This document shows positions 336-28,154 of a DNA stretch of 34,611 bases, piece after piece. The notes under the pieces are model-generated. The model was not told the DNA's origin and did no database searches. It saw only the letters and a list, made by a program, of their open reading frames with translations. Made by a program: the position numbers and the translations under genes. This DNA is from a virus. The DNA is taken from the UHGV virus genome UHGV-0165227; one strand, written 5' to 3'. How positions within the stretch are numbered: position 1 is the stretch's first letter; each line of letters begins with the position of its first letter.

Positions 336-962
336 TCAATGAATCCATTCCTCGCCGCGCAGTTTTGCCAGCATTGGCTGAGCGTTCTTTACGACAAAAT
401 TGTTGGTATCAAGATTCTTCATTTCACGAAGAAGTGATTTCTTGGTTTCTTCTGACATGTAGCGAGTCTCATATGCAATATCGTAAATCCTTCCTGAAAG
501 CTCAGAACCAATTTGCTTCATTCCTGGGTAGATGTGTTTGCACATTTGTTGACTCTTCTCCATCCACAATTGTAAGTAGCAGAGATTAACCAGTTCTTCG
601 TCAGTAAACTGTTTTGCAATCGGTGAGCATTCTGCCTGCCGATCCAAAATATCCAGCACCCAGCGGCGGAACTCTTTGGCTACCTGAGTGCGAGCAAACA
701 TCGCGATTAGGTGGGCACCGCGTAGTGAGAAAACACGCACTTTTTTGCGATAATTTCCTGAGGTACTCACTTCGAGTACCTGAGTCATTCCGGCGCTAAA
801 CTCATCGCTATACTTGTTATAAATCATTGTTACTGCACGACTATTTGCGTATTTAAGTGCAGATGCAATATTAGATGATGTAAACCAAACACCATGCATA
901 TCACGGGTGGGCACCAATTCAACTCCGTGGAAGTTATAATCTGATTTTGCTACAATATTCAT
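336..962 (-). CDS. ant: Antirepressor Ant (Bro-N/AntA-type N-terminal domain)
   Basis: Immediately downstream of arc on the same strand; AAGGAAA RBS before ATG at 962; Bro-N-like N-terminal pattern; upstream in-frame part of the track ORF lacks an RBS. Confidence 0.6.
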   Translation of the reverse strand: MNIVAKSDYNFHGVELVPTRDMHGVWFTSSNIASALKYANSRAVTMIYNKYSDEFSAGMTQVLEVSTSGNYRKKVRVFSLRGAHLIAMFARTQVAKEFRRWVLDILDRQAECSPIAKQFTDEELVNLCYLQLWMEKSQQMCKHIYPGMKQIGSELSGRIYDIAYETRYMSEETKKSLLREMKNLDTNNFVVKNAQPMLAKLRGEEWIH

Positions 963-1037
963 GTTAGTTTCCTTGCATACGGTTACTGACATAGAGGCCC
1001 GGTTTGTGTTCACGCACTGCCGGGCTTCACTATTTTT
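948..1037 (+). ncRNA. Candidate sar-like antisense RNA covering the ant ribosome-binding site
   Basis: Extended -10 TGCTACAAT (948-956) inside ant 5' end on the opposite strand; hairpin GCCCGG (997-1002) / CCGGGC (1020-1025) followed by U-rich tract 1026-1037. Confidence 0.35.
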
Positions 1038-1209
1038 ACTGGGCATTAGCTCTTTCCTCTCTCAGGCTTTTAGCCAGTCGCTGCACAATCGCAGAGTTGA
1101 TAGAAATTCCATCCATTTCAGCAACACGTCTAATCTCCTCCTTCATTCGCGCTGGCAAACGAAGCTGGAAACTTTGACTTTTACGACCTGTGTAAAGCAC
1201 ATCTTTCAT
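1036..1209 (-). CDS. arc: Arc-like ribbon-helix-helix repressor
   Basis: GGAGG RBS before ATG at 1209; N-terminal beta-strand plus helices motif typical of Arc/MetJ family; directly upstream of ant. Confidence 0.65.
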   Translation of the reverse strand: MKDVLYTGRKSQSFQLRLPARMKEEIRRVAEMDGISINSAIVQRLAKSLREERANAQ

Positions 1210-1237
1210 AAGTAATCCTCCCACAATGATACCAACT

Positions 1238-1320: not shown

Positions 1321-1641
1321 ATGAGCAAGTTCCCTAGTCATGAAATGGATAGGTTCAATATCAGGCTTCCTGCAGGAATGCGGGATGCTATAGCTGAACG
1401 AGCCAAACGTAACGGCAGATCAATGAACTCAGAGATTGTTCAGATACTGGAAGATGCCTTGAATGCAGAAAATACACTCGGGGAAATAGCAGATAAAATC
1501 AACAGCGTCTCGGTTCCGCTAAATGTTGATGCGCTAGTTCAACTTCAAGCCCAGGTTATCGCCATGCAAAAAGAAATACAGGAAAAGTTCAGAGAGCAGA
1601 ACGAAAAGTTGAGAGAACTGCTAAACAAAAAAACCACCTGA
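1321..1641 (+). CDS. mnt: Mnt-like ribbon-helix-helix repressor
   Basis: N-terminal FNIRLP...RNGRSMNSEIVQ motif matches P22 Mnt/Arc family; GAGGT RBS; divergent from arc-ant. Confidence 0.75.
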   Translation: MSKFPSHEMDRFNIRLPAGMRDAIAERAKRNGRSMNSEIVQILEDALNAENTLGEIADKINSVSVPLNVDALVQLQAQVIAMQKEIQEKFREQNEKLRELLNKKTT

Positions 1642-1668
1642 CGGTGGGTTAATTTTTGCCTTTTTTGG
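1634..1668 (+). terminator. Weak intrinsic terminator after mnt
   Basis: CCACC-TGAC-GGTGG hairpin overlapping mnt stop, followed by interrupted T-rich tract. Confidence 0.35.
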
Positions 1669-1739
1669 ACCATATTGACTACTCATAAAATGAGATCAAT
1701 ATTTAATCGCCCAATAACGGGTGCATGTTGAGGTATATC

Positions 1740-1919
1740 ATGGCGAAAAAACCAGGTGAAAACACAGGAAAAAACGGCGGAATATACCAAGAAGTTGGCC
1801 CGCGCGGAGGTAAGAAAGACAATTTTGCCACCGTCAAGGACAACGAAAGGCTTCCGCCAACAACAAAGCCAGGTCATGGCTGGGTATTAGATAAGCGAAC
1901 TCCAGACAGCAAAAAGTAA
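1740..1919 (+). CDS. Small YjzC-like protein (function unknown)
   Basis: GAGG RBS 6 nt before ATG at 1740; KPGENTGKNGGIYQEVGPRGG pattern resembles the YjzC-like small-protein family; same strand as mnt. Confidence 0.45.
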   Translation: MAKKPGENTGKNGGIYQEVGPRGGKKDNFATVKDNERLPPTTKPGHGWVLDKRTPDSKK

Positions 1920-1925
1920 TAATCA

Positions 1926-1948
1926 AGCCGGGTCACTCCGGCTTTTTG
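1926..1948 (+). terminator. Intrinsic terminator after the YjzC-like gene
   Basis: AGCCGG (1926-1931) / CCGGCT (1938-1943), 6-nt loop, TTTTT (1944-1948); overlaps stop of the convergent minus-strand gene. Confidence 0.6.
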
Positions 1949-2298
1949 ATATGTCGCTCGCAGAACTCAACAAGCCTGCTCATTAAGTAGCAGTAAGTCT
2001 CGTTGGCTCTTCCTGGTTCAACATCAACGCCGACCCTTGAGCAGATATCGAATGCCATGTGAGCGCACTCATGGGCAATAGTAGATAGTTTGCCATTGAA
2101 CACACCTATCACATGCAAAACACCATTCTCGCTGCTCATTGTATGAGACGCTCCGTTGGCATCCGAGTCCTGCACGTCCACGCCAAGTTTTTGATGCAGG
2201 CGTTGCCATTCTGGAAAGTCTCTGCAAAACACAATTGTACCGCTCTCAAAGAGCGGAACGAGCATTTTTGGTACGTTTCCAATGTTAACTTTTTTCAT
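1933..2298 (-). CDS. Small HExxH-motif protein, candidate minimal zinc metallopeptidase
   Basis: 121-aa ORF with HECAH (HExxH) and downstream Glu residues; AGGA RBS; lies where P22 carries sieA. Confidence 0.45.
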   Translation of the reverse strand: MKKVNIGNVPKMLVPLFESGTIVFCRDFPEWQRLHQKLGVDVQDSDANGASHTMSSENGVLHVIGVFNGKLSTIAHECAHMAFDICSRVGVDVEPGRANETYCYLMSRLVEFCERHIKKPE

Positions 2299-2328
2299 GG
2301 TATCCTGCTCAAAACTAAGGAGGTTGGT

Positions 2329-2556
2329 GTGAAGCGATGGTTCCTCATAATTACTGTTTTCGCGATCATTTACACTATTTTCCCTGCATTAAAAGCACCA
2401 ATGCAAATAATTTCGCTAGCAATAATTGCAATTGGTGCTTTCATTGCAGTAGCCGTACTTGTGTTTAAGGTTTTAAAGTTTTTAGTTTGGCTATCAAAAG
2501 ATGATGGATGCAAAGTTCATCAAGAAAAAGAAGGCAAAATAACCAAAGTTGACTAA
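2329..2556 (+). CDS. Small two-helix membrane protein (75 aa), GTG start
   Basis: Strong RBS TAAGGAGGT (2316-2324) 4 nt before GTG 2329; two hydrophobic segments; AT-rich; convergent with gp16. Confidence 0.4.
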   Translation: MKRWFLIITVFAIIYTIFPALKAPMQIISLAIIAIGAFIAVAVLVFKVLKFLVWLSKDDGCKVHQEKEGKITKVD

Positions 2557-4676
2557 CTGTCACTAGCGAGCCATGTAATAATCCCCGTGCGGGCAATGGT
2601 TTTTGCTTCATCTGTTGATAAGGTTTTCTCCCATCTCTTAAATGCCCCAGATTGCATCAGTTTCCTTTCTATTACGCGTCTCACTTCTGCTCTGTCTACT
2701 GGTGCGTTTTGCAGGCGAAATAGCATTGATTTAAACTCAGGAGAAGACAGTAGAGCATCAGCAGCCTTTATCCTGCTTGTTTTCCCTGACATCAATGCTG
2801 ACGTTATCACCCCTGTTGCACCTACACCAGGAAGACCAGATAAGCTTGTAATACCTTCCGCCGCAGCAGCTTTTGAGGCTATTCCATAAATTTTTGCGAG
2901 ACTACCCTTTTCTTTCAGAAAGTTATTAACTTGCTGATCCACAAGGCTGCTAGCATACTGCTTACCAGTATTGAGTCTATTCATAGCCTTGGCTGCTTGA
3001 TAAATCGTATCAAGGCGCTTTGATGCATCTGTGCCAATAGCATCACGGAGAGCCTTCATATTGGCCCCATTGCGTGACATTCCGTTATACCATTTTACAA
3101 ATCCATCAACCCCTAATTGCTGGCCTGGTGATTTAGCATAGCTGGTAAATGCTTTATTCATTGAGGTGAGCGCAACTTCCTGCCGCATATCCTTTGGAAT
3201 TGACTTCATTAATTGCCTAAAGTCACCACCGTTTCCTTTTGCCATATTAACAACGGCACTTTCAACTTTTGGAATTGCTGATTGCTGAAGTTTTCTACCC
3301 AAAACGGTTACGGCATCATCTTCAATGGATTTTCGTGTTTTTACCAACTCCTTACCAAGCGTCCATAACTCCCCTGCGCCATATTTTTCTGCGACAGCCT
3401 GTTGGTCATCTGTTATAGCCGCATATAACTTTTTAAGAACACCTGTTTCTTCATCCTTGAATGGGCCAGAGCCTTTGCCAATAGCTTGCCCAACCTGCTT
3501 TCTAGCGAGATCTAAACGCCCATACGTTGGCAAGGTGTTTGGATCAAGTCGGTTCAATGTCCGCTTCATTATTGGAGATAATTCATCAATTCCACCTATA
3601 TCATCAGCAAAATCCTCTAAAAAATTCAATGTATTAGTTGCCTCAATCCGGTCTCTTACAGGAACCTTTTCGGCAATTTTGTTGTAGATGTTATCTGACT
3701 GATTTTGTAATGATGAAATGGTTTTATCAAAATTATCTGCAAGCCTGTCAGAAACCAGTTGCTTATCAAGGCTTCCCCCAAATGAAGTTATCATTTCATC
3801 AGCTTTTCTTCCTAATTCAGTAATAAAACGCTTATGCGCCTCACTAATCTCTGTTCCAGGGAGACTTGCCACTGCATTATCAAGAGCCCTGACAGCAGGA
3901 TTATTAGAGATCATGCCTGGAGTGGCATAATTTTCCAGTTCTAGCTCACGAATAGCATTTATCGCGTTAAAATCAGGATTAACTTCATCGGCGAAATCTT
4001 GAATAGCTCGTTGCCCGCCGATAAATTTATTGTCCATTGCGCCAGCAGCTTTCTTTAACGTTGCTTTAGATGATTTACTACCCATCCCTACGGATGAGCG
4101 ATAAATATCTCCGGCACTATTTTTAATTTTTCCTGCAATCTTCCCAAGCGCTGGACCAACAATCTCTGCTACAGGGCCAGCCACAGCGCCAATAGCAGCT
4201 CCAGAAGCAACATCGCTATTTGTTCCATTGGCTACAATAGCCCCTTCTCCAGCACCAAGCCCTGCGGCGGCAGCCAGCCTTGCCGCCCCTTTCGGAACCT
4301 GAGAAATAATCCCACCACCACTAACAAATGGCGCTGCTTGTCCAACAAACTCACCAACATCTTGTGCGGTTGATGGTTTTGCCGCTAACTTCTGCTGTAG
4401 AGACTGAATTGCGGCTTGCTCTTCTGGTGTCATATCCTGAAACAGGCCAACACCTTTACCAACATCCATCAATCCACTGAGAACGCCATACATAAAACGG
4501 TCGAAACCGTTAGCATTATTAACAACATTTTCCTGTCTGGAATTTTCCTCTGGCGAAACCAAAGGTGATTGCTGCTGTTCTGGTTGGGCATCAAGCACAA
4601 AACCATCAGGAAGCTGTGAGTTATCAGGCTGATTATCGAGAACAAAGCCTTCGGGTAAACCTACATCGGTTGCCAT
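2553..4676 (-). CDS. Ejection (injection) protein, P22 gp16-like
   Basis: Last gene of the ejection-protein trio by synteny (gp7, gp20, gp16); 707 aa, Gly/Ala-rich. Confidence 0.7.
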
Positions 4677-6004
4677 TGTCCGTTCCTGTAAATGAGTTTC
4701 TGACCAGTTTTAGGGTTCGTTGCCGTCGCGCCTTCTGATATCCCACTTGGCGCAGCTTTTGTCTGCCCATTACCACCTTGTGGTGTAGGCTGCGCTGGGA
4801 CATCGTCAAATAGCTTGGCCTTCCTTCTCCCTAAGCTTTTTTTCAGCCCCTGAGGAATAGTATCTCCATACGTATCCAGATATTCGTCTACCTGCTGGTT
4901 AAACTGCTGCCCCATAGCGTTGGCGTTAATTTTTGCTGCGTTAACAATGTTATCCCTCGCTTCCTGTGACAAGCCATTCCCTGCATTAAGCTGGTCTACA
5001 TATCCTTTTATCTGCCCCCATATGCCATCAGAGCGCATGACCTGAACCTGTTCACCTTCGCGAACAACTGACTGAGGGTCGAGAGACTTCATGTAATTAA
5101 AGATAATCCCAAGTTGGGCAGCGCCAGTATTTACCTTGCTAAGGGCTTGCAGAGAGTTTGCCGCCGCTCTGACAGAGTTATAATTTTTGCCAAAATTGGT
5201 AATGTCAGAATTTAATCCCTTAATTAAGTCTGCTGACGGCTTACCTTTTTGCCCCAGCTCCATTAGCTTCAATCCCATCTCATCTGAGTGCATTTGTGCC
5301 CGCTGAGCCCTGTCTAGTTGAGCGTTCTGGATATTTGCCCATCCTCTCGCATTCTCCATGTCAGCCTGACGGATGCTTTCATCCAATCGCCCTTTCTCAA
5401 GTTGGCGACCAACCATCTTATCCTGAACAGCAAACGCCTTTTCTGGTCCAAGCGCACCGAGAGACATAGTAGTCAGCATGTGTGATAGCTGCTCTGGATT
5501 CTGAATACCTGTCTGAATCATCCAGTCAGCATTCGCCCCCACGCGATTTAACCTGTCCTTGTTGTCAGTAATGAATTTACTGTAGGCTTCCGGTCCCTGA
5601 GAAAGAGCGACGTTAGCCCTCATGGCTAAATCGCCCATATCGTTGCGTTGCTGATCATTAAGACCGGAAAACGCCTGTTGTGCCTGTGCAACAAACGCTG
5701 GATTTTCCTGGGCAAACTTAAATAGTCCCGATGGATCACCAGAAGCCCATGCATCAGCGTGAACCTTATTGAACGCACTAATAGCTTTCTGTTGCTGTTC
5801 CTGATTGTAAATATCAGCAACTCCAGCCAGACCACGTAACGCGGTCAGGCCAACGTTATTTGCACCTGAGCGAGCCAGTTCATTGTTTTCGCGGATCATA
5901 CCAAGCGTTGCGTTAATGTCGCTTGCCTTTGGCGCATTCTCATTTTGCGTACCGATGCCAGCCAGAAAACCACCAGAATTAATACCCTGTTGCCACGTAG
6001 CCAT
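4661..6004 (-). CDS. Ejection protein, P22 gp20-like
   Basis: Synteny and length (447 aa) consistent with P22 gp20. Confidence 0.75.
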
Positions 6005-6014
6005 TGATTACCCC

Positions 6015-6707
6015 TTAAAACAACGAGCCAAGCAGACCAAGACCGCCGCCGATCGCAGCCCCCCACGGAGTTGATGAACCAATTAATTTCGCAAGTCCGG
6101 CCCCAGCAATAGCACCAGACGCACCTCCGCCAATAGCAGATTGCATTGCTGATGGTCTGTTGGCATTTGCCGCTGCAAGAGCCGCACTTTGCTGCGAAAT
6201 CTGACTCATGTTGTTGGCATATGTTTGCCCGGCGTTTGCCTGCCCCTGAAGAGCGCCAAGACCGATATTTGCCAGGTTGTTGTAATTGTTCATTTGTCCA
6301 GATAGCCATTGCTGACCTAGCGTTGGTGCGATTGTTGCTAACTGATTACTGGTTGCGGTGGAACCTAATCCACCTGTTGCTTCCGCTGCCGCCAGACTCT
6401 GATAACGAGCCTGACCAGCAAGATCTTTGTACTGCTGAGAGTTGTAATACTGGTTAAGTGCCTGACCTTGCCCTTCCAGAGACGATAAGTTCTCGAGGCT
6501 GCCGACATACTTATCAGCCAGAGGAGTAAACGGCTTCAGGTTGTTCATGATGGTGTTGAACTGCTGATTTTGCAGGTCTGCTGCATACTTCTGAGCTTCT
6601 GCGGCATACTTTGCGCTTTTATCAGAACTGCCACCTTTCCCGCCTTTTTCAGGGCAATAAGGTTCCTCGCCGCGCAGTTTTCTGCCCAGCTTAAATGCAT
6701 ATAACAT
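6015..6707 (-). CDS. Ejection protein, P22 gp7-like
   Basis: 230 aa; sequence recalled as near-identical to P22 gp7; Gly-rich C-terminus. Confidence 0.8.
   Translation of the reverse strand: MLYAFKLGRKLRGEEPYCPEKGGKGGSSDKSAKYAAEAQKYAADLQNQQFNTIMNNLKPFTPLADKYVGSLENLSSLEGQGQALNQYYNSQQYKDLAGQARYQSLAAAEATGGLGSTATSNQLATIAPTLGQQWLSGQMNNYNNLANIGLGALQGQANAGQTYANNMSQISQQSAALAAANANRPSAMQSAIGGGASGAIAGAGLAKLIGSSTPWGAAIGGGLGLLGSLF

Positions 6708-26801: not shown

Positions 26802-28154
<1,353 letters not shown>

What the first reader, a model, noticed from the sequence alone, without database searches (positions are those of the whole stretch)
2329..2556. Small membrane protein with a near-consensus RBS, convergent on gp16
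TAAGGAGGT sits 4 nt upstream of a GTG, followed by a 75-aa ORF with two hydrophobic helices and a charged C-terminal tail. The track ORF (2113..2556) extends upstream antisense to the HExxH gene, but only the 2329 start has an RBS. Small membrane proteins at this position are candidates for blocking DNA entry of superinfecting phage.
Basis: seen in the sequence. Interest (0 to 1): 0.45.

Follow-up and report, generated by a model that had tools for sequence, protein, structure and literature searches.

The report
Small membrane protein replacing P22 sieA
A real, conserved 75-residue two-helix membrane protein gene sits where phage P22 keeps its DNA-entry-blocking gene sieA and uses the same ribosome site and start codon, so it is a good but untested candidate for a new, unrelated blocker of infection by rival phages.

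Summary
TAAGGAGGT (2316-2324), a 4-nt spacer and GTG 2329 open a 75-codon ORF (2329..2556) with two hydrophobic segments and a charged tail. Its stop overlaps the stop of the convergent gp16-type ejection gene by 4 nt.

It is a real gene. It matches phrog_7294 end to end, and PGAP annotates it in 34 of 5,426 complete E. coli genomes. A second allele has ATG and a different Shine-Dalgarno at the same position. A 57%-identical homologue keeps 75 codons (dN/dS 0.27).

The window is a P22-like prophage. P22 is 97.5% identical up to and including this GTG, which is P22's annotated sieA start, and unrelated after it. The ORF therefore occupies the sieA slot behind the upstream region that drives sieA in P22.

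The protein is not a SieA homologue: no similarity, no FxRYPxEAxxFNK motif, 2 rather than 3-4 helices.

The 34-nt junction 2298-2331 precedes 11 unrelated gene families in IMG/VR phage contigs, 10 with a membrane or signal segment. The 75-aa gene always accompanies one gp16 type.

Superinfection exclusion at DNA entry is the best-supported function (about 0.4) but is unproven.

The parts
2329..2556 (+). 75-codon ORF (GTG start, TAA stop) encoding a predicted two-helix inner-membrane protein of phrog_7294
2316..2324 (+). Shine-Dalgarno TAAGGAGGT, 4 nt before the GTG
   Evidence: It is identical in P22 in front of sieA.
2298..2331 (+). 34-nt conserved junction TGGTATCCTGCTCAAAACTAAGGAGGTTGGTGTG. 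It is the only sequence shared between at least 8 upstream modules and 11 downstream gene families. Its left part is the reverse complement of CAGGATACC, an SD-like element for the divergent hkcC-type ORF.
2244..2328 (+). 85 bp upstream of the start, about 98% identical to the 85 bp that, together with sieA, sufficed for exclusion from a single chromosomal copy in P22. The putative PsieA annotated in P22 maps to about 2268-2298.
   Evidence: PMC10883804. No consensus sigma-70 match was found here.
2338..2382 (+). codons 4-18, hydrophobic segment 1 (WFLIITVFAIIYTIF). This is the most variable part between alleles.
2407..2466 (+). codons 27-46, hydrophobic segment 2 (peak KD 3.04)
2497..2553 (+). 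codons 57-75, charged C-terminal tail [19 protein letters not shown]. This is the best-conserved region (14 of 19 identical to the divergent homologue).
2553..4676 (-). convergent 707-aa gp16-type ejection ('DNA transfer') protein gene with a 4-nt stop-stop overlap. It is the only constant neighbour of the 75-aa gene.
1933..2298 (-). divergent HExxH ORF (phrog_1365, probably P22 hkcC). It is one of several alternative left-hand neighbours.
1625..2331 (+). segment 97.5% identical to P22 (3' end of mnt, orf59a, t-mnt, hkcC, sieA upstream region and start codon). Identity ends at the GTG.

Best explanation
The ORF is a translated gene for a 75-residue inner-membrane protein. Its inferred topology is a hairpin with the N-terminus in the cytoplasm, helix 1 at residues 4-18, a short periplasmic turn FPALKAPMQ, helix 2 at residues 27-46, and a conserved charged cytoplasmic tail.

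It is a non-homologous replacement of sieA in the sieA slot of the 'ant moron' of a P22-like prophage. It was recombined in at a 34-nt junction that carries the Shine-Dalgarno and the GTG. It is therefore expected to be expressed from the prophage as sieA is. In other prophages it lies in a co-directional array downstream of mnt.

Most likely it acts like SieA without being a SieA. From the inner membrane of the lysogen it would interfere with assembly or function of the gp7/gp20/gp16 ejection-protein conduit of incoming P22-like phages, so that their DNA does not enter. Its target would probably be the distinct 707-aa gp16 type to which it is always linked.

Shown here: it is a real gene under purifying selection, it occupies the sieA slot with P22's sieA expression signals, it has hydrophobic hairpin features, and it is exclusively linked to one gp16 type. 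Inferred: the topology, expression in lysogens, and the exclusion function and its target.
For: Gene reality:
- Full-length match to phrog_7294, E 3e-49.
- The same CDS is annotated in 34 of 5,426 complete E. coli genomes, and the exact protein is seen on 897 contigs.
- Two alleles have different SD and start codons at the same position.
- 28 of 29 copies are intact.
- Against the L129 homologue, dN/dS is 0.27 with dS about 1.07, the excess of synonymous changes has p = 8e-4, there are no indels, and every other frame contains stops.

The sieA slot:
- P22 identity runs to the GTG, which is the annotated sieA start, and stops there.
- In P22, 85 bp of upstream sequence plus sieA suffices for exclusion.

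The slot holds envelope proteins: 10 of 11 gene families behind the same junction have a membrane or signal segment. Phage Kapi1 has two signal-peptide ORFs in the same place.

Linkage: the 75-aa gene is always next to the 707-aa gp16 type. This holds in 11 of 11 junction-bearing IMG/VR contigs, in 34 of 34 E. coli genomes, and in every copy where enough gp16 sequence is held to judge (27 of the 29 loci). The left flank meanwhile falls into at least 9 contexts. The divergent homologue keeps the same 4-nt overlap with a 78%-identical gp16.

In the L002/L003 and L129 contexts the gene is co-directional with mnt and with genes downstream of it.
Against: No experiment bears on function. The protein has no similarity to SieA (BLASTP E 3.6) and lacks the conserved FxRYPxEAxxFNK motif and the 3-4 helices of SieA types A-C. 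It has no hit in Pfam, NCBIfam or PADLOC.

The slot is not exclusive to exclusion genes. It also holds a soluble 140-aa protein and a YobH-like protein. All the other gene families found there are of unknown function.

Linkage to gp16 could be a by-product of the 4-nt overlap, which leaves no intergenic room for recombination. Eleven of 45 E. coli prophages with this gp16 type lack the gene.

No consensus sigma-70 promoter was detected upstream, and PsieA itself is only putative. The topology rests on hydropathy and the positive-inside rule. AF2 gave one long helix, or two helices broken at residue 18, at pLDDT 72-76 from shallow alignments.
Confidence: 0.4

Rival explanations
1. A prophage-expressed membrane protein that defends by another route. 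It would be a holin-like or toxin-like effector that permeabilises or depolarises the membrane on infection (abortive infection), rather than blocking DNA entry.
For: The architecture is that of class II holins: small, two hydrophobic segments with a short turn, and a highly charged C-terminal tail (the holin features are from general knowledge). The ORF is AT-rich and moron-like (GC 0.346 against 0.467 for the window). Ant morons of related prophages carry toxin-antitoxin-type genes with a Panacea domain.
Against: No PHROG, Pfam or PADLOC holin, toxin or Abi family matches it. The best PADLOC hit is a '4TM effector' at E 0.052, which is insignificant. It has no constant partner gene: the left flank varies over at least 9 contexts. 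It lies outside the lysis cassette and on the strand opposite the late operon. Constitutive lysogen expression of a strongly hydrophobic toxin would need a control mechanism, and none is visible.
Confidence: 0.2
2. A lysogenic-conversion or fitness factor unrelated to phage exclusion. It would be a small membrane protein that modulates a host transporter, sensor or envelope process, carried as cargo in a highly fluid moron.
For: The ant moron is known to be in rapid flux, with many genes of unknown and evidently non-identical function (PMC2629481). The same slot carries a homologue of the host small protein YobH and a soluble 140-aa protein. Only 22 of 66 P22-like phages have sieA.
Against: This reading does not explain the exclusive association with one gp16 type across at least 9 left-flank contexts and in a 57%-identical homologue. 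The family is absent outside P22-like elements. There are only 2 clusters at 50% identity among 1.84 billion representatives and none in 185,579 species-representative genomes.
Confidence: 0.3
3. Not a functional gene: a chance ORF, or a decayed remnant of sieA left behind the strong sieA ribosome-binding site.
For: The ORF is short and AT-rich. One frameshifted copy exists (L154). It is unannotated in phage E212.
Against: dN/dS is 0.27 at a dS of about 1. The length is exactly conserved with no indels at 69% nucleotide identity, and all other frames contain stops. The start position is conserved with two different SD and start-codon pairs. The C-terminal tail is conserved. There is no residual similarity to SieA.
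Confidence: 0.03

Closest known systems
P22 SieA (types A, B, C; Leavitt et al. 2024, PMC10883804)
   Same: Same genomic slot, between gene 16 and mnt and convergent on gene 16. The upstream 85 bp, Shine-Dalgarno and GTG are shared with P22 sieA. Both are predicted inner-membrane proteins encoded by P22-like prophages of E. coli and Salmonella.
   Different: No sequence similarity (BLASTP E 3.6). It has 75 aa rather than 162-210, and 2 rather than 3-4 hydrophobic helices. It lacks the FxRYPxEAxxFNK motif. It overlaps gene 16 by 4 nt, whereas P22 has a 22-nt gap. It is tied to a gp16 type only about 23% identical to P22 gp16. Its function is untested.
T4 Imm and other small inner-membrane injection blockers (from general knowledge)
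   Same: Similar size class (about 80 aa) and hydrophobic membrane architecture. The proposed site of action is the same: the inner membrane, at DNA entry.
   Different: No homology. The Pfam and PHROG scans returned no immunity or exclusion family. It is a prophage gene, not a lytic-phage early gene.
Class II holins / pinholins (for example S21; from general knowledge)
   Same: Two hydrophobic segments, a short turn, a charged C-terminal tail, and about 70 aa.
   Different: It is not in the lysis cassette and lies on the strand opposite the late operon. There is no holin-family match. Helix 1 is strongly hydrophobic rather than SAR-like.
The 'ant moron' of P22-like phages (Villafane et al. 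2008, PMC2629481)
   Same: The ORF lies in this known hypervariable, independently expressed insertion between genes 16 and 9. Gene turnover there has already been described.
   Different: That paper does not describe this family. Passages retrieved from it by a term search do not mention the 34-nt junction or the predominance of envelope proteins at the position next to gene 16; the full text was not read.
YobH-like, 62-aa two-helix, 116-aa four-helix, 129-aa signal-peptide and other alternative occupants of the slot
   Same: Same slot, same 34-nt junction and GTG start. They are mostly small envelope-targeted proteins, and all are uncharacterised.
   Different: Their sequences are unrelated. 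Most are found with several gp16 types, whereas the 75-aa gene is found with only one.

Membership tests
SieA (types A/B/C) | Detectable sequence similarity to a known SieA type | tested here: not met
   BLASTP against P22 SieA gives E 3.6. The two fall in separate BLASTP clusters. The ORF's only PHROG matches are phrog_7294 and a weak hit to another family of unknown function.
SieA (types A/B/C) | Conserved cytoplasmic motif FxRYPxEAxxFNK near the C-terminus | tested here: not met
   The motif is defined. The tail here is [20 protein letters not shown].
SieA (types A/B/C) | 160-210 aa with 3-4 transmembrane helices | tested here: not met
   75 aa with two hydrophobic segments, against 3-4 for SieA.
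SieA (types A/B/C) | Located between the gene 16 and gene 9 homologues of a P22-like prophage | tested here: met
SieA (types A/B/C) | Blocks DNA injection by P22-like phages, with escape mutations in gp16 and gp20 | not testable with these tools
   This needs plating, K+ efflux and DNA-entry assays.
phrog_7294 (unknown function) | Full-length profile match | tested here: met
   E 3e-49, residues 1-75 against profile positions 1-75 of 75.
Class II holin | Two transmembrane domains plus a charged C-terminal tail | tested here: inconclusive
   Hydropathy is compatible. AF2 does not resolve a hairpin.
Class II holin | Encoded in the lysis cassette next to the endolysin and expressed late | tested here: not met
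   The ORF lies in the ant moron on the strand opposite the late operon.
T4 Imm-type superinfection immunity | Match to the curated family profile | tested here: not met
   No Pfam family at E <= 0.01 and no annotated PHROG.
Two-gene toxin-antitoxin module | A constant adjacent partner gene | tested here: not met
   There are at least 9 different left flanks. The only constant neighbour is gp16, which is convergent.

The most novel reading that the evidence does not exclude
The 75-aa protein would be a minimal injection blocker, unrelated to SieA and specific to one ejection-protein (gp16) type. The 34-nt bidirectional translation-initiation junction would be a dedicated cassette-exchange site. 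Through it, P22-like phages would swap at least 11 unrelated, mostly envelope-targeted genes next to the DNA-ejection genes. That would make the position an exclusion-gene hotspot in which SieA is only the one member studied so far.
Probability: 0.3. Interest if true: 0.65.

Novelty: new member of a known kind. Interest (0 to 1): 0.4.

Why it matters
How SieA stops the P22 ejection-protein conduit is unresolved. Leavitt et al. state that it is hard to understand how such interactions persist across very divergent SieA and E-proteins.

A 75-residue protein with a 19-residue conserved tail, tied to a single gp16 type, would be a far simpler probe of that conduit if it excludes phage.

The junction analysis also gives a concrete list of about ten further uncharacterised envelope proteins to test as exclusion or conversion factors. 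They sit at one well-defined position in prophages that are common in E. coli and Salmonella. This is relevant to phage typing, phage therapy and prophage competition.

Tried and rejected
- SieA homology or a decayed sieA: rejected. BLASTP E is 3.6, the motif is absent, and the ORF is under purifying selection.
- Known families: Pfam, NCBIfam and PADLOC gave nothing significant. PHROGs gave only a family of unknown function.
- Distant homologues: a profile search of 1.84 billion representatives found only one further genuine cluster, P0022. The other three hits are long repetitive proteins matched in many short stretches. A scan of 185,579 species-representative genomes found none.
- Structure: two AF2 runs on shallow alignments gave a single helix (2-70), or two helices broken at residue 18, at pLDDT 72-76. 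They do not decide the topology, so no fold search was run.
- Promoter: the consensus scan found no sigma-70 match upstream of the ORF. TGGTATCCT within the junction resembles an extended -10 element, but that is only my reading of the sequence.
- Toxin-antitoxin partner: none is conserved.
- The longer 147-aa ORF from 2113: rejected. There is no SD, the extension is not conserved, and the PHROG match covers only the last 75 residues.
- Literature: searches for the RefSeq accessions and the PHROG id returned no paper.

Full report
**1. The observation**

- TAAGGAGGT lies at 2316-2324, the spacer TGGT at 2325-2328, and GTG at 2329-2331.
- 75 codons follow, ending at TAA 2554-2556.
- The 9-mer occurs once in the window, against 0.16 expected from shuffles.

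The mechanical ORF list also contains the longer 2113..2556 ORF, which runs antisense to the HExxH ORF 1933..2298. Only its last 75 residues match a protein family: phrog_7294, profile positions 1-75 of 75, E 3e-49.

Kyte-Doolittle hydropathy gives two hydrophobic segments at about residues 4-18 and 27-46, the second peaking at 3.04. They are separated by FPALKAPMQ. An amphipathic KVLKFLVWLS stretch and a tail with 10 charged residues in 19 follow.

With K2 and R3 at the N-terminus and K47, K50 and K57 after helix 2, the positive-inside rule suggests a hairpin with both termini in the cytoplasm. That is an inference. AF2 on shallow alignments gave either one helix (2-70) or helices 2-17 and 19-59 with a disordered tail, at pLDDT 72-76. 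It does not decide the topology.

**2. It is a real gene and the start is right**

- PGAP annotates the same 228-nt CDS in related E. coli prophages. The DNA is present in 34 of 5,426 complete E. coli genomes.
- The exact protein is seen on 897 public contigs from E. coli, Salmonella and E. albertii. It is almost always named 'hypothetical protein'.
- A second allele (MKQWLIIIAVFLLIY...) has ATG at exactly the position of the GTG, behind a different Shine-Dalgarno, GGGAGG.
- A 57%-identical homologue from a metagenome (P0022, locus L129) has TAAGGGGGTTGGCGTG at that position and again 75 codons.
- Window against L129: 69% nucleotide identity with no indels, dS about 1.07, dN 0.29, dN/dS 0.27. 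The excess of synonymous changes has p = 8e-4. Third codon positions change most, and every other frame contains 3-10 stops.
- 28 of 29 copies examined are intact.
- The C-terminal tail is the best-conserved part, with 14 of 19 residues identical. The helices score 7 of 15 and 8 of 20.
- Between the two common alleles, all amino-acid changes but one lie in helix 1 and are hydrophobic-for-hydrophobic.

**3. What the locus is**

The window is a P22-like (Lederbergvirus-type) phage genome. Its left end reads as follows:

| Gene | Coordinates | Strand |
|---|---|---|
| ant-like | 336..1046 | - |
| arc | 1036..1224 | - |
| mnt | 1321..1641 | + |
| orf59a-like | 1725..1919 | + |
| HExxH ORF | 1933..2298 | - |
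| 75-aa ORF | 2329..2556 | + |
| gp16-type | 2553..4676 | - |
| gp20-type | 4661..6004 | - |
| gp7-type | 6015..6707 | - |

P22 is 97.5% identical to window 1625-2331, and the match ends there. In the annotated P22 record, sieA starts at the very GTG that aligns with window 2329. The putative PsieA maps to about window 2268-2298. The pairwise alignment is identical through TAAGGAGGTTGGTGTG and unrelated immediately after it. The 75-aa ORF is thus an exact, in-register replacement of sieA.

Leavitt et al. (PMC10883804) showed three relevant things.
- sieA with only 85 bp of upstream DNA, in single copy, gives full exclusion.
- Escape mutations map to the C-terminal regions of gp16 and gp20.

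The window carries those 85 bp almost unchanged, which is the best available argument for expression in lysogens. In other prophages the gene is instead co-directional with mnt and the genes after it, at short spacings. That suggests transcription from the maintenance-repressor promoter. No consensus sigma-70 promoter was detected by the simple scan.

**4. It is not a SieA**

- BLASTP against P22 SieA gives E 3.6.
- SieA types A-C have 162-210 aa, 3-4 helices and a conserved FxRYPxEAxxFNK motif. The 75-aa protein has none of these.
- Pfam, NCBIfam and PADLOC return nothing significant.

The family is tiny and confined to P22-like elements.
- Two genuine clusters at 50% identity among 1.84 billion representatives.
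- 24 of 2.9 million IMG/VR contigs.
- Two phage records, EC.P3 and E212.
- None in 185,579 species-representative genomes.

**5. The slot and its junction**

The 22-mer CAAAACTAAGGAGGTTGGTGTG occurs in at least 120 IMG/VR contigs. The ORFs that start at its GTG fall into 11 unrelated families:
- SieA type A, 164 aa
- the 75-aa protein
- a 62-aa two-helix protein
- a 116-aa four-helix protein
- 107/109-aa proteins with an N-terminal helix and a coiled-coil-like body
- a 129-aa signal-peptide protein
- 103/106-aa proteins with an N-terminal helix
- a 149-aa protein with one helix
- a 99-aa signal-peptide protein
- a 68-aa YobH-like protein
- a soluble 140-aa protein

Ten of the eleven have a membrane or signal segment. 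Apart from SieA, none has a known function.

I aligned 90 nt upstream and 30 nt downstream of the GTG across these contigs. The only shared sequence is the 34 nt TGGTATCCTGnnCAAAACTAAGGAGGTTGGTGTG. It joins at least 8 upstream sequence types to the 11 gene families in many combinations. Its left part is the reverse complement of CAGGATACC, an SD-like element 4 nt from the ATG of the divergent hkcC-type ORF. The 30-nt spacer therefore looks like a bidirectional translation-initiation region that doubles as a recombination junction. That reading is an inference.

High gene flux in this 'ant moron' was described in 2008 (PMC2629481). Linker-mediated mosaicism is a known lambdoid theme. I did not find this particular junction, or the predominance of envelope proteins at this position, described in the passages I retrieved or in the literature searches. 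Phage Kapi1, whose gp16 is 52% identical, has two convergent signal-peptide ORFs in the same place.

**6. Linkage to gp16**

In every copy where enough sequence is held to judge, the 75-aa gene abuts the same gp16 type, with the same 4-nt stop-stop overlap.
- 11 of 11 junction-bearing IMG/VR contigs.
- 34 of 34 E. coli genomes, by coordinates.
- Of the 29 loci, all share the stop-stop overlap. The 27 with at least 300 gp16 codons held are 98-100% identical over the C-terminal 300 aa, except L129 at 81%.

The left flank, by contrast, falls into at least 9 contexts. This gp16 type is essentially unrelated to P22 gp16: 23% identity over 271 aa, E 0.03.

The linkage is not reciprocal. Eleven of 45 E. 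coli prophages with this gp16 carry a YobH-like or the 140-aa gene instead, with homology breaking at window 2571. Other gene families in the slot mix among gp16 types.

The linkage fits a protein whose target is that gp16. It could equally be a by-product of the overlap leaving no room for recombination. I cannot separate the two readings.

**7. Mechanism and rivals**

*Best explanation (about 0.4).* A lysogen-expressed inner-membrane hairpin that works like SieA. It would interfere with the incoming ejection-protein conduit so that DNA does not enter, and the conserved tail would be the specific determinant.

*Rivals.*
- *A holin-like or abortive-infection membrane effector (0.2).* The architecture matches class II holins. 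There is no family match, no partner gene, and the location is wrong for a lysis gene.
- *A conversion or fitness factor unrelated to phage exclusion (0.3).* The moron is heterogeneous. This reading leaves the gp16 linkage and the restriction to P22-like elements unexplained.
- *A non-functional ORF or sieA remnant (0.03).* Contradicted by the selection and start-site evidence.

**8. Verdict**

The ORF is an uncharacterised but genuine member of a known kind of locus: moron-encoded prophage membrane proteins at the sieA position.

Interest is moderate. It is ordinary as an annotation ('hypothetical protein', phrog_7294). It offers a sharply testable hypothesis, and the junction and gene-family census widens it to a family of candidates.

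Noticed in passing
window 27750-28154 (+), directly after the C2-like repressor gene 27121..27753: A 134-aa signal-peptide protein ([21 protein letters not shown]...) overlaps the repressor's stop codon. It belongs to phrog_2651. That is the same family as the 129-aa signal-peptide protein that occupies the sieA slot in other P22-like phages (28% identity, E 4e-12). The same family therefore turns up at two canonical prophage-expressed positions.
   Followed up: partly
window 2298-2331, and P22 locus L001 3175-3208: Leavitt et al. call the P22 sieA start codon uncertain (162 or 164 aa). Ten other gene families all begin at the GTG of the shared SD-GTG junction. That argues the same GTG (the 164-aa form) is the sieA start.
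   Followed up: partly
window 1933-2298 (-): A 121-aa ORF with an HECAH motif (phrog_1365, no Pfam hit) is 97.5% identical in DNA to the corresponding P22 segment, where AF527608 annotates no gene. It is probably the 'hkcC' gene of unknown function named in the epsilon34 paper. The putative PsieA annotated in P22 lies inside its 5' coding region.
   Followed up: partly
window 1925-1944: A bidirectional terminator-like hairpin (AAGCCGGGTCACTCCGGCTT followed by a T run) lies between orf59a-like and the HExxH ORF. It corresponds to the t-mnt annotated in P22.
   Followed up: no
window 1321-1641 and 1625: Mnt here is 106 aa against 83 aa in P22. P22 homology begins only at 1625, inside the 3' end of mnt, so the repressor gene itself is a different allele. 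The Ant-like protein (336..1046, 236 aa) is also shorter than P22 Ant.
   Followed up: no
L004 3180-3629, L008 2368-2811, L157 (EC.P3) 2712-3155; L004 2163-2699, L129 1785-2321: Ant morons of sister prophages that carry the 75-aa gene or the same gp16 type hold Panacea-domain genes (antitoxin-type) and a ClpP-like protease gene right after mnt. These are further defence or toxin-antitoxin-like genes in this region.
   Followed up: no
L154 1639-1821: One of the 29 copies of the 75-aa gene is frameshifted near the N-terminus. This is either a pseudogene or an assembly error.
   Followed up: no
L156 (phage Kapi1) 5215-5757: Kapi1 has a gp16 52% identical to the window's. It carries two convergent small ORFs (103 and 61 aa) after gp16, both annotated in the record with DeepTMHMM signal peptides.
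   Followed up: no
window 1725-1919 (+): The orf59a-like 64-aa ORF (phrog_3202) gives a sub-threshold Pfam match to YjzC-like (E 0.0017, below the gathering score).
   Followed up: no
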